Assembly: GCF_057098645.1 (NCBI RefSeq)
Contig: NZ_CM169472.1
Reading direction: 5' to 3' (one strand)
Length of the DNA stretch: 64,000 nucleotides
Made by a program: the position numbers. Positions 37,836-40,800 of the stretch are shown here, piece after piece (the first letter of the stretch is position 1; each line of letters opens with the position of its first letter).

Positions 37836-40800
37836 TTAAGCGCGCGCTTCAACTCACCCCTGCAATATTTTGTCCATCACGCGCCCCGGCAGCAGGCGCT
37901 TAAGCACCATTACTGCCCAGGTCACCAGCGTTACCGGATAGCGCATCTTCGGCTTCTCGCTAATAAAAGCATGGCGTACTTTGTCGACCACCGCTTCCGG
38001 TCCCAACGTAAAGCGAGCAGCGATGCCGGGATTTTCGACTGGTTTATCACTTTGCGTCTGGTTGACGTTGTCGGTGAAGCGAGTACGAATGGGACCGGGT
38101 TCGATCAGGCTGACTTTAATTCCGCTGTGGCGTAGCTCCATGCGCAGCGCGTCTGACCACGCCTCCAGCGCATATTTACTGGCCGCGTAAGCGCCACGAC
38201 CCGGCGTGGAGATTAATCCCATCACCGATGATGTCATCACAATACGCCCTTCACCGTGCGGTAACATCGCGGGTAACAGGCGCATGGTGAGCTGGTGTGC
38301 GCCGAAAAAGTTGGCGGAAAACTGCTGTTCCATCTGCGCACGGCTGATGGTGGAAAGGGGGCCATACATGCCGAATCCGGCATTGTTAAAGATCCCATAC
38401 AGACAATTATCGGTCAGGGCGATCACCTCGTCGGCTGCGCGATCAACACTTTCTGGTGAATCCAGATCGATCAACACGCCGGTAAATCCCATGCTGTTCA
38501 TGCGCTCAACATCATCCGGTTTCCGGCAACCTGCCAGCACATGAAAACCCTGGCGTTTTAATTCGAGCGCGCTTTCCAGGCCAATTCCACTGGAACATCC
38601 GGTAATTAAGACCGATTTTTGCATAACTTTACCTGTCAGGATCTCCGTTGCTTTATGAGTCATGATTTACTAAAGGCTGCAACTGCTTCGCCATCCAGTC
38701 GGCAATAAACGGCTGGGCGTCGCGGTTGGGATGAATACCGTCATCCTGCATCCATTGTGGCTTGAGGTAGACCTCTTCCATAAAAAAGGGCAGCAGCGGA
38801 ACATCAAACTCTTTGGCGAGTTTGGGGTAAATGGCGCTAAAGGCTTCATTATAACGGCGACCATAGTTTGCAGGCAGACGTATTTGCATTAACAATGGTT
38901 CAGCGTTGGCGGCTTTGACATCCTGCAAAATCTGGCGCAGCGTTTGCTCGGTTTGCTGTGGCTGAAAACCACGCAAACCGTCATTGCCGCCCAGTTCAAC
39001 CAGCACCCAGCGCGGCTGATGCTGTTTCAGCAGAGCCGGAAGGCGCGCCAGCCCTTGTTGCGAGGTGTCGCCGCTGATGCTGGCATTAACTACCGACGTT
39101 TTACTCTGCCACTTATCATTCAACAAGGCAGGCCAGGCCGCGCTGGCAGACATTCGATACCCGGCGCTCAGGCTATCACCCAGAATCAATAACGTGTCCG
39201 CTGCGGCGGCACGGAAGGTTAACAGGACCAGGAACAGGAAGGGCAAATGCCAGCGGAAAACATTGTTGAAGTTCATCATCTTAAGAAGTCCGTCGGTCAG
39301 GGGGAGCATGAACTCTCCATCCTCACCGGAGTTGAGCTGGTTGTCAAACGTGGCGAGACCATCGCGCTGGTGGGCGAGTCGGGATCGGGTAAGTCAACCT
39401 TGCTGGCGATCCTCGCCGGGCTGGATGACGGCAGCAGTGGCGAAGTGAGTCTGGTGGGACAACCGCTACATAATATGGACGAAGAAGCGCGGGCAAAGTT
39501 GCGCGCGAAGCACGTCGGCTTTGTTTTTCAGTCATTTATGCTAATTCCTACCCTTAACGCGCTGGAAAACGTCGAGCTTCCGGCGCTGCTGCGCGGTGAG
39601 AGTAGCGCGGAAAGTCGTAACGGAGCGAAAGCGTTGCTCGAACAGTTAGGGCTGGGTAAACGTCTGGATCATCTTCCGGCACAGCTTTCCGGCGGTGAAC
39701 AGCAACGAGTGGCGCTGGCACGAGCCTTTAACGGTCGACCTGATGTGCTGTTTGCCGACGAACCCACCGGCAACCTTGACCGCCAGACCGGCGATAAAAT
39801 TGCCGACCTGCTGTTTTCCCTCAACCGTGAGCATGGCACCACGTTGATTATGGTGACCCACGACCTGCAACTGGCGGCACGCTGCGACCGCTGCTTACGG
39901 CTGGTGAACGGGCAGTTGCAGGAGGAAGCATGATTGCACGCTGGTTCTGGCGCGAATGGCGTTCGCCGTCGCTATTAATTGTCTGGCTGGCGCTAAGCCT
40001 GGCGGTGGCCTGCGTGCTGGCGCTGGGCAATATCAGCGATCGCATGGAGAAGGGCTTAAGCCAACAAAGCCGGGAGTTTATGGCGGGCGATCGGGCGTTG
40101 CGCAGTTCGCGCGAAGTGCCGCAAGCATGGCTGGAGGAAGCGCAAAAGCGCGGCCTGAAAGTCGGCAAGCAGCTGACTTTCGCCACCATGACATTTGCAG
40201 GCGACACACCGCAGCTGGCGAACGTCAAAGCGGTGGATGATATCTACCCGATGTATGGCGATCTGCAAACCAATCCCCTTGGCCTGAAACCGCAGGCGGG
40301 CAGCGTATTGCTGGCCCCACGCCTGATGGCACTGCTTAACCTGAAAACGGGCGACACCATTGACGTGGGCGATGCCACCTTGCGGATTGCCGGAGAAGTG
40401 ATTCAGGAACCGGATTCCGGTTTTAACCCCTTCCAGATGGCTCCGCGTCTAATGATGAATCTGGCTGATGTCGATAAAACCGGAGCCGTGCAGCCGGGGA
40501 GTCGGGTCACCTGGCGTTATAAATTCGGCGGCAGCGAGAACCAGCTCGACAGCTATGAGAAATGGTTGTTACCTCAGCTTAAACCCGAACAACGCTGGTA
40601 CGGTCTGGAACAGGACGAAGGCGCGCTGGGGCGATCGATGGAACGCTCGCAACAGTTCCTGCTGCTTTCGGCGCTTCTGACCTTGCTGCTGGCAGTGGCA
40701 GCAGTGGCGGTAGCGATGAATCATTACTGTCGCAGTCGCTACGATCTGGTGGCGATCCTCAAAACGCTGGGGGCAGGGCGAGCGCAACTGCGTAAGCTAA

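What the first reader, a model, noticed from the sequence alone, without database searches (positions are those of the whole stretch)
39247..39279. Divergent tesA and ybbA coding regions overlap by 33 bp at their 5' ends
With the conserved starts (tesA MMNFNN at 39279 on the minus strand, ybbA MPAENIV at 39247 on the plus strand) the two genes overlap head-to-head, so each promoter lies inside the other gene's first codons. Probably native rather than novel, but it constrains start-codon choice and implies transcriptional interference.
Basis: seen in the sequence. Interest (0 to 1): 0.15.

Follow-up and report, generated by a model that had tools for sequence, protein, structure and literature searches.

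The report
Known head-to-head tesA/ybbA gene overlap
Two neighbouring E. coli genes on opposite strands, whose proteins work together in one membrane complex, really do overlap by 30-33 bases at their starts, but this is a native, conserved, already annotated and published feature, not a discovery.

Summary
ybbA starts at ATG 39247 (+), which is its only plausible start. tesA starts at ATG 39279 or 39276 (-). The coding regions therefore overlap head-to-head by 33 or 30 bp.

The E. coli K-12 reference annotation already carries the 33-bp overlap. NCBI's PGAP pipeline annotates 30 bp in other strains. The geometry is in the same register in all 80 Enterobacteriaceae species sampled. The second ATG (39276) is invariant; the first is ACG in 16 of the 81 sequences.

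Synonymous sites inside the overlap are almost frozen: 0.13 bits of entropy against about 1.0 bit in neighbouring codons.

Published start-site mapping puts the tesA transcription start at 39311, 32 nt upstream of ATG 39279 and inside ybbA codon 22. Its promoter is TTGACA-17-GAGGAT. Weak ybbA starts lie 155-387 nt upstream, deep inside tesA. The promoters therefore face each other and the mRNA 5' ends are complementary over at least 220 nt.

A 2025 catalogue lists the pair as a divergent "excludon". A 2025 structural paper on the YbbAP-TesA complex notes the operon overlap. Functional interference has not been tested.

More distant relatives keep the two starts nearly touching (-2 to +52 bp). 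Verdict: ordinary, already known, low interest.

The parts
39247..39279 (.). Head-to-head coding overlap, 33 bp (30 bp if tesA starts at 39276). It covers YbbA codons 1-11 and TesA codons 1-11. Codon position 1 of one gene lies opposite position 3 of the other.
38653..39279 (-). tesA coding sequence (thioesterase I / protease I / lysophospholipase L1): 208 aa from ATG 39279, or 207 aa from ATG 39276.
39202..39279 (-). TesA signal peptide, residues 1-26 (MMNFNNVFRWHLPFLFLVLLTFRAAA). Mature protein starts ADTLL in solved structures. The overlap lies wholly in the cleaved positively charged N-terminal part of the signal peptide.
   Evidence: 1ivn, 9ge8_T start at ADTLL
39247..39933 (+). ybbA coding sequence (ABC ATPase of the YbbAP type VII transporter), 228 aa. 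ATG 39247 is the only plausible start.
39236..39243 (+). ybbA Shine-Dalgarno AGGAAGGG (duplex with the 16S 3' end -7.0 kcal/mol). It lies inside TesA codons 13-15 and is highly conserved.
39311..39311 (-). Experimentally mapped tesA transcription start (NC_000913.2 519021, 45 reads, 32-nt leader). It lies in ybbA codon 22.
   Evidence: Kim et al. 2012, PMC3415461 supplement
39319..39347 (-). tesA sigma-70-type promoter embedded in ybbA codons 25-34: -35 TTGACA (39347-39342), 17-nt spacer, -10 GAGGAT (39324-39319). The -35 hexamer is identical in 80 of 81 sequences, although it spans two ybbA wobble positions.
39307..39309 (-). Upstream in-frame ATG, rejected as the tesA start. It is the antisense of the YbbA His21 codon. 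It sits at +3 of the mapped mRNA, so its strong Shine-Dalgarno sequence is not transcribed. It is not a start codon in 10 of 81 sequences.
39092..39092 (+). Weak mapped + strand transcription start assigned to ybbA (2 reads, 155-nt leader), inside tesA codon 63.
38860..38905 (+). Two further weak + strand starts: 38860 (Kim 2012, 2 reads) and 38905 (Cappable-seq, score 2.45). Both are antisense to tesA codons 125-140.
39930..42344 (+). ybbP (permease partner). Its start overlaps the ybbA stop by 4 bp (ATGA).
37854..38663 (-). ybbO (aldehyde reductase), downstream of tesA in the same transcription direction. It overlaps the tesA 3' end by 11 bp.

Best explanation
This is the native junction between two divergent E. 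coli transcription units, tesA-ybbO (- strand) and ybbA-ybbP (+ strand). Their products assemble into the YbbA2-YbbP-TesA lipid-hydrolase/ABC transporter complex.

Shown:
- The first 10-11 codons of each gene are written on opposite strands of the same 30-33 bp. ybbA starts at ATG 39247. tesA starts at one of two adjacent ATGs, 39279 or 39276; only 39276 is invariant across species.
- The shared stretch encodes the start of YbbA, up to and into its first beta-strand, and the N-terminal part of TesA's cleaved signal peptide. Both tolerate dual coding.
- Once formed, the overlap became evolutionarily frozen. Each start codon is the antisense of a His codon in the partner gene, and substitutions are coupled across strands.
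- There is no intergenic DNA, so the promoters sit inside the partner gene and face each other. The main tesA promoter (TTGACA-17-GAGGAT, start 39311) lies in ybbA codons 22-34. ybbA is reached only from weak starts 155-387 nt upstream, inside tesA.
- The two mRNAs are therefore complementary over at least 220 nt at their 5' ends.

Inferred:
- RNA polymerases heading for ybbAP must pass through the stronger, oncoming tesA promoter. This probably helps keep ybbAP expression low relative to tesA. I put the chance that this interference matters physiologically at about 0.3.
- Otherwise the arrangement is most likely a conserved by-product of an ancestrally near-zero spacer between the two starts, not a dedicated switch.
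For: - Sequence and reading frames.
- Reference annotation with the 33-bp overlap. PGAP annotation with 30 bp.
- Identity of both proteins to solved structures, and a mature TesA N-terminus at ADTLL.
- Same register in 81 of 81 Enterobacteriaceae sequences: ATG at 39276 in 81, ATG at 39279 in 65, ybbA ATG in 81, with no alternative ybbA start.
- Wobble entropy of 0.13 bits in the overlap against about 1.0 bit in flanking codons, and amino-acid changes paired across strands, for example YbbA H11R with TesA M1T.
- Experimental tesA start at 39311 with 45 reads, whose upstream sequence contains TTGACA-17-GAGGAT. Weak ybbA starts at 39092 and 38860, and a Cappable-seq start at 38905.
- The -35 hexamer is conserved in 80 of 81 sequences.
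- tesA-ybbA is among the 16 divergent excludons called from MG1655 RNA-seq samples.
- The operon overlap and the 2:1:1 complex are noted in PLoS Biol 2025.
- Distant homologues keep a divergent ABC ATPase with start-to-start spacing of -33, -2, 0, -2, -2, -2, +13, +17, +25 and +52 bp.
Against: - No direct evidence was found for which tesA ATG initiates. No initiation-site profiling or N-terminal data could be retrieved.
- The Shine-Dalgarno sequence before 39279/39276 is weak (-3.2 kcal/mol).
- The ybbA starts rest on 2 reads each or a Cappable-seq score of 2.45. An earlier directed attempt to map the ybbA start gave no product. The true ybbA promoter is therefore uncertain.
- A simple sigma-70 consensus scan found no promoter in 38600-40000.
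- Interference, RNase III cleavage and any expression coupling are untested for this pair.
- Mutual exclusion would be odd for partners in one complex.
Confidence: 0.85

Rival explanations
1. The overlap is a working regulatory device: a divergent excludon. Face-to-face transcription and 5' sense/antisense pairing, possibly with RNase III cleavage, would make tesA-ybbO and ybbAP expression antagonistic, or would set their ratio.
For: - tesA-ybbA is listed among 16 divergent excludons detected in at least 50% of 58 MG1655 RNA-seq samples.
- 40% of divergent excludons overlap p19-captured double-stranded RNA.
- Mapped starts give at least 220 nt of 5' complementarity.
- Near-zero spacing is kept in distant lineages.
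Against: - No pair-specific evidence of double-stranded RNA, RNase III cleavage or reciprocal expression was found.
- A listing is automatic for any pair whose coding regions overlap and are both transcribed.
- TesA and YbbAP form one complex, so co-expression is expected, not exclusion.
- The ybbA starts are very weak, so collisions should be rare.
- Conservation of the overlap is explained by dual-coding constraint alone.
Confidence: 0.2
2. tesA translation really starts at the upstream ATG 39309 (MLPLTDGLLK-MMNFNN...). This would give a 63-bp overlap and a 36-residue signal peptide.
For: - It is an in-frame ATG with the strongest Shine-Dalgarno match in the region (GGAGAG, -8.4 kcal/mol against -3.2 for 39279).
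- A start codon (ATG, GTG or TTG) is present there in 71 of 81 sequences.
- Some database entries are 218 aa long.
Against: - The mapped tesA start 39311 puts this AUG at +3 of the mRNA, so the Shine-Dalgarno sequence is not transcribed.
- The codon is the antisense of YbbA His21/Gln21. CAT and CAC automatically read ATG and GTG on the other strand, so its presence is a by-product.
- It is CTG or TGC in 10 of 81 sequences.
- Curated K-12 and PGAP annotations do not use it.
Confidence: 0.04
3. There is no real overlap. tesA starts at TTG 39246, directly abutting the ybbA ATG, as some genome annotations imply (197- or 194-aa TesA).
For: - K. pneumoniae MGH78578 tesA is annotated at 594 nt, and several database entries are 194-197 aa, starting MPFLFL.
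- Distant homologues do have abutting or 2-bp-overlapping starts.
Against: - The TTG is replaced by TGG or CTG in 10 of 81 sequences.
- It has essentially no Shine-Dalgarno sequence (-1.5 kcal/mol).
- This start would remove the only positively charged residue (Arg9) from the N-terminal part of the signal peptide.
- ATG 39276 is invariant, and MNF(N/K)xVFRWH is conserved as protein out to homologues of 70-78% identity.
- The shorter calls look like gene-finder avoidance of 5'-5' overlaps.
Confidence: 0.03

Closest known systems
E. coli K-12 tesA (b0494) / ybbA (b0495) as annotated in NC_000913.3, and the YbbAP-TesA complex (PLoS Biol 2025, PDB 9GE6-9GE8)
   Same: It is the same locus. The proteins are identical to the PDB chains. 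The same 33-bp annotated overlap is present. [quoted passage not shown]
   Different: Nothing of substance. The window comes from a strain matching O145-type genomes at 100% over the 701 bp tested. It carries one SNP relative to K-12 upstream of the 39092 start site.
Divergent excludons (ExcludonFinder catalogue, NAR 2025; concept from Listeria/Staphylococcus work)
   Same: These are divergent neighbours whose transcripts overlap at their 5' ends. tesA-ybbA is explicitly listed, and mapped start sites confirm the overlap.
   Different: Classical excludons overlap in long untranslated regions and show reciprocal expression. Here the coding regions themselves overlap, the partners form one complex, and neither reciprocal expression nor RNase III processing has been shown.
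Bidirectional promoters generated by -10 element symmetry (Warman et al. 2021; recalled from my own knowledge, not retrieved here)
   Same: A divergent gene pair served by closely placed promoters with no dedicated intergenic region.
   Different: In those promoters the two starts are back-to-back, about 18 bp apart, and the transcripts do not overlap. Here the starts face each other, are 220-452 bp apart, and the transcripts are complementary.
Short overlaps of adjacent prokaryotic genes in general (Huvet & Stumpf 2014)
   Same: An overlap created by start-codon placement and then conserved.
   Different: It belongs to the rarest orientation class. In the E. coli genome analysed there, 586 overlapping pairs were co-oriented, 75 convergent and only 2 divergent. 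Whether tesA-ybbA is one of those 2 was not stated.

Membership tests
Head-to-head (divergent) overlapping gene pair | Two protein-coding genes on opposite strands | tested here: met
   TesA and YbbA match solved structures at E 1e-121 and 1e-145.
Head-to-head (divergent) overlapping gene pair | The real start codons of both genes lie inside the other gene's coding sequence | tested here: met
   The ybbA ATG has no alternative. tesA ATG 39276 is invariant in 81 of 81 sequences, and the mapped tesA mRNA start 39311 lies upstream of it. Direct initiation-site data were not found.
Head-to-head (divergent) overlapping gene pair | The overlap is conserved in orthologous loci, so it is not an annotation accident | tested here: met
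   Same register in 80 species, and wobble entropy of 0.13 against about 1.0 bit. A homologue of 70% identity has the same 33-bp overlap.
Divergent excludon | Transcripts of the divergent neighbours overlap at their 5' ends | tested here: met
   Published start sites mapped onto the window give 220-452 nt of overlap. The pair is listed by ExcludonFinder.
Divergent excludon | Reciprocal (mutually exclusive) expression of the two units | not testable with these tools
   No expression data were retrievable. The partnership in one 2:1:1 complex argues against it.
Divergent excludon | Double-stranded RNA formation or RNase III processing of the overlap | not tested
   Only the aggregate figure is reported, 40% of divergent excludons hit by p19 double-stranded RNA. 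There is no pair-level statement.
Symmetry-type bidirectional promoter | Opposite-strand starts back-to-back, about 18 bp apart, sharing one -10 region | tested here: not met
   The starts face each other and are at least 220 bp apart. No inverted repeat was found in 39150-39400.
Sec-type cleavable signal peptide (TesA residues 1-26) | Positively charged N-terminal part, hydrophobic core, A-x-A cleavage motif, and a mature N-terminus downstream | tested here: met
   The sequence reads MMNFNNVFRWH / LPFLFLVLLTF / RAAA then ADTLL. Crystallised mature chains begin at ADTLL. No signal-peptide predictor was run.
Known RNA family (Rfam) in the overlap | Covariance-model match | tested here: not met
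   There was no hit between 37500 and 42381. The nearest hits lie downstream of ybbP.

The most novel reading that the evidence does not exclude
The near absence of an intergenic spacer may be a selected design, not a frozen accident. Spacing between tesA and its divergent ABC ATPase gene ranges from -33 to +52 bp, and 'CATG' shared starts recur in unrelated lineages. On this reading, embedded face-to-face promoters and obligatory 5' sense/antisense pairing would tune the TesA:YbbAP ratio of a physically interacting hydrolase-transporter pair across Gammaproteobacteria.
Probability: 0.12. Interest if true: 0.4.

Novelty: already known. Interest (0 to 1): 0.13.

Why it matters
It matters little beyond housekeeping.

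- It documents one of the very few head-to-head coding overlaps in E. coli. In one survey only 2 of 663 overlapping adjacent pairs were divergent.
- It shows how dual coding freezes a signal-peptide N-terminus.
- It explains why automated annotations of tesA disagree (194, 197, 207, 208 and 218 aa).
- Anyone engineering tesA or ybbAP should note the practical consequences. The leaderless 'TesA variant is widely used for fatty-acid production (from my own knowledge). Edits to the first 11 codons of either gene change the other protein. The tesA promoter sits inside ybbA codons 22-34.
- If the face-to-face promoters proved to set the TesA:YbbAP ratio, this would be a modest example of expression coupling for partners in one complex.

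Tried and rejected
- A sigma-70 consensus scan of 38600-40000 found no promoter. The real tesA promoter has a consensus -35 but only 3 of 6 matches in the -10, so it falls below that tool's threshold.
- An inverted-repeat search of 39150-39400 found nothing, so there is no sign of a shared palindromic operator.
- An Rfam scan of 37500-43500 found nothing in or near the overlap.
- I looked for runs of conserved tesA wobble sites that might mark an embedded ybbA promoter. None lay near the ybbA start beyond its ribosome-binding region. The only runs were at 38689-38707 and 38773-38785.
- Several literature supplements gave nothing for tesA or ybbA. Thomason 2015 is not held. SMRT-Cappable-seq, Conway 2014, Adams 2021, TRAINSPOTTER N-terminomics and the Ribo-RET preprint had no entries.
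- The stored Cappable-seq file is truncated before the minus-strand sites, so it could only inform the + strand.
- Mendoza-Vargas 2009 tried a ybbA primer and obtained no ybbA product.
- The search for homologous proteins returned only close relatives of at least 78% identity. Distant lineages had to come from the 50%-cluster search plus contig look-ups.
- I considered and rejected the upstream ATG 39309 and the TTG 39246 as tesA starts (see the rival explanations).
- The organisms behind most distant loci were not identified.

Full report
**Observation.** Window 39247-39279 reads ATGCCAGCGGAAAACATTGTTGAAGTTCATCAT. On the + strand it opens a 228-aa reading frame, MPAENIVEVHH... (39247..39933). 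On the - strand it is the start, MMNFNNVFRWH..., of a reading frame that ends at 38653. The two proteins are E. coli YbbA and TesA. YbbA is identical over all 228 residues to the YbbA chain of PDB 9GE6/7/8. TesA from residue 27 (ADTLL) is identical to the mature thioesterase I chains 1IVN and 9GE8_T. The region occurs in 5416 of 5426 complete E. coli genomes.

**Is the overlap real, or does it depend on start-codon choice?**

- For ybbA there is no choice. An in-frame TAA lies at 39220 and no start codon lies between it and ATG 39247. The next in-frame start, a GTG 123 nt downstream, would delete the first beta-strands just before the Walker A motif.
- In 81 sequences (80 Enterobacteriaceae species from the genome collection, plus the window), the ybbA ATG is invariant and no alternative upstream start exists.
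- tesA has four in-frame candidates: ATG 39309, ATG 39279, ATG 39276 and TTG 39246.
- ATG 39276 is present in 81 of 81 sequences. 39279 is ATG in 65 and ACG in 16. 39309 is ATG 42, GTG 27, TTG 2, CTG 9, TGC 1. 39246 is TTG 67, TGG 6, CTG 4, GTG 4.
- The K-12 reference uses 39279 (tesA 519139..519765, ybbA 519733..520419, a 33-bp overlap). PGAP RefSeq records use 39276 (207 aa, a 30-bp overlap).
- Salmonella and Erwiniaceae entries also begin MNFN/MNFK.

The overlap therefore exists under every credible start.

**Anatomy of the dual coding.** Codon position 1 of one gene lies opposite position 3 of the other, and ATG reads CAT on the other strand.

- TesA Met1 and Met2 are the antisense of YbbA His11 and His10.
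- The ybbA ATG is the antisense of TesA His11.
- The upstream ATG 39309 is the antisense of YbbA His21. Both His codons give ATG or GTG on the other strand, so the frequent presence of a start codon there is a by-product and not evidence of use.

Amino-acid changes are coupled across strands: YbbA H11R with TesA M1T, I6S with N6T, E8A with F4C, and IV-to-IL with NN-to-KY. Entropy at synonymous positions is 0.13 bits inside the overlap. It is 0.50-0.67 bits in the nine codons that carry the partner's ribosome-binding region, and 0.93-1.07 bits in codons 21-51. All 81 sequences keep exactly the same register. On the TesA side the overlap lies entirely in the cleaved signal peptide (residues 1-11 of 26). 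For that reason N-terminal proteomics of mature TesA cannot identify the start codon.

**Promoters and transcripts.** There is no intergenic DNA, so the promoters must lie inside the coding sequence.

- By eye, the - strand carries a consensus -35 TTGACA (39347-39342), a 17-nt spacer and GAGGAT (39324-19). The -35 hexamer is identical in 80 of 81 sequences even though it spans two ybbA wobble positions.
- The supplement of Kim et al. 2012 (PMC3415461) lists a tesA transcription start at NC_000913.2 519021 (-) with 45 reads and a 32-nt leader. Its upstream sequence is exactly this promoter.
- Mapping that sequence gives window 39311, in ybbA codon 22.
- From this start the mRNA begins UCAUGCUCC.... 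The upstream AUG 39309 therefore sits at +3 and its strong Shine-Dalgarno sequence (-8.4 kcal/mol) is not transcribed. This essentially removes the 63-bp-overlap reading.
- For ybbA, the same dataset lists only two 2-read starts, at window 38860 and 39092 (leaders of 387 and 155 nt). Cappable-seq lists a weak + strand start at window 38905 and none closer. An earlier directed attempt to map ybbA gave no product.

The promoters are therefore face-to-face, 220-452 bp apart, and the 5' parts of the two mRNAs are complementary over at least 220 nt. It is wrong for the detectable ybbA starts (tesA codons 63-140).

**What is already published.**

[quoted passage not shown] - ExcludonFinder (NAR 2025) lists tesA-ybbA among 16 divergent excludons found in at least half of 58 MG1655 RNA-seq samples. 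Only aggregate validation is given: 40% of divergent excludons overlap p19-captured double-stranded RNA.
- Huvet & Stumpf 2014 count only 2 divergent overlaps among 663 overlapping adjacent pairs in E. coli. The class is rare, but the instance is annotated.

**Beyond Enterobacteriaceae.** I took representatives of TesA clusters at 41-70% identity and looked them up on their contigs. Ten of eleven lineages have a divergent ABC ATPase plus FtsX-type permease next to the hydrolase gene. Start-to-start spacing, read from the sequence, was as follows:

| Spacing (bp) | Lineages | Note |
|---|---|---|
| -33 | 1 | Same MMNFKN/MPAENV arrangement as E. coli |
| -2 | 4 | Shared "CATG" |
| 0 | 1 | "CATATG" |
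| +13 | 1 | |
| +17 | 1 | |
| +25 | 1 | |
| +52 | 1 | |

Near-zero spacing therefore looks like a family trait. The 30/33-bp overlap is the version found in the Enterobacteriaceae sampled and in one 70%-identity relative from an unidentified metagenome. These starts are gene-caller calls that I checked by eye only, and most of the organisms were not identified.

**Mechanism and confidence.** I am confident (about 0.95) that the overlap is real and native. Which of the two adjacent ATGs is used remains open. The face-to-face promoter geometry rests on one good start site for tesA and on weak data for ybbA. Any functional consequence is inference: polymerase collision, promoter occlusion, or antisense pairing with RNase III cleavage. 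Because the partners form one complex and the ybbA starts are weak, I favour a frozen, largely neutral arrangement that at most damps ybbAP expression. I put physiologically meaningful interference at about 0.3, and a true mutually exclusive excludon at 0.2 or less.

**Verdict.** The feature is already known from the reference annotation, the 2012 start-site data and two 2025 papers. Interest is low.

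Noticed in passing
window 39276-39279; protein entries P0019, P0066, P0089, P0010: Public annotations of this one gene disagree on the start. TesA is entered as 194, 197, 204, 207, 208, 214 and 218 aa in different Enterobacteriaceae records. K. pneumoniae MGH78578 tesA is 594 nt. The short forms (MPFLFL...) look like gene-finder avoidance of the 5'-5' overlap.
   Followed up: partly
L084 2500-2503, L092 453-456, L098 1500-1503, L099 1500-1503; L087 1738-1743: In distant TesA/ABC-ATPase pairs the two start codons share the palindrome CATG (a 2-bp overlap) in four separate lineages, and read CATATG in a fifth. This is a recurrent way of placing divergent starts with no spacer.
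   Followed up: partly
window 38653-38663 and 39930-39933: Both flanking same-strand junctions also overlap. The tesA stop region and the ybbO start overlap by 11 bp, and the ybbA stop and ybbP start overlap by 4 bp (ATGA). All four genes of the two units are therefore chained by overlaps.
   Followed up: no
window 38689-38707 (-): A run of unusually conserved tesA wobble positions (mean entropy 0.34-0.42 bits against a gene average of 1.0) lies just upstream of the ybbO start. It probably marks the ybbO ribosome-binding region embedded in the tesA 3' end.
   Followed up: no
window 42906-42994 (+), with weaker hits at 42958-43026: There is an Rfam match to AgrB (53.6 bits, above the gathering score of 40). 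AgrB is the antisense regulator of the dinQ type I toxin. The hit lies downstream of ybbP, and dinQ is annotated at the corresponding place in the closest RefSeq record.
   Followed up: no
window 42382-42464: Sub-threshold Rfam hits to ES036 and naRNA4 lie directly after the ybbP stop (42344). Both families correspond to repetitive extragenic (REP-like) elements, so this is probably a REP element in the ybbP 3' region.
   Followed up: no
window 39490-region; NC_000913.2 519490 (+): Kim et al. 2012 list a 3-read + strand transcription start inside ybbA, assigned to ybbP. It may be a weak internal promoter. I did not map it onto the window.
   Followed up: no
L057 (record titled Chryseobacterium sp. 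18061): A locus with 88% TesA identity and typical enterobacterial synteny sits in an assembly labelled Chryseobacterium. It is nearly identical to L062 (Citrobacter sp. 18056) from the same study, which suggests a mislabelled or contaminated assembly.
   Followed up: no
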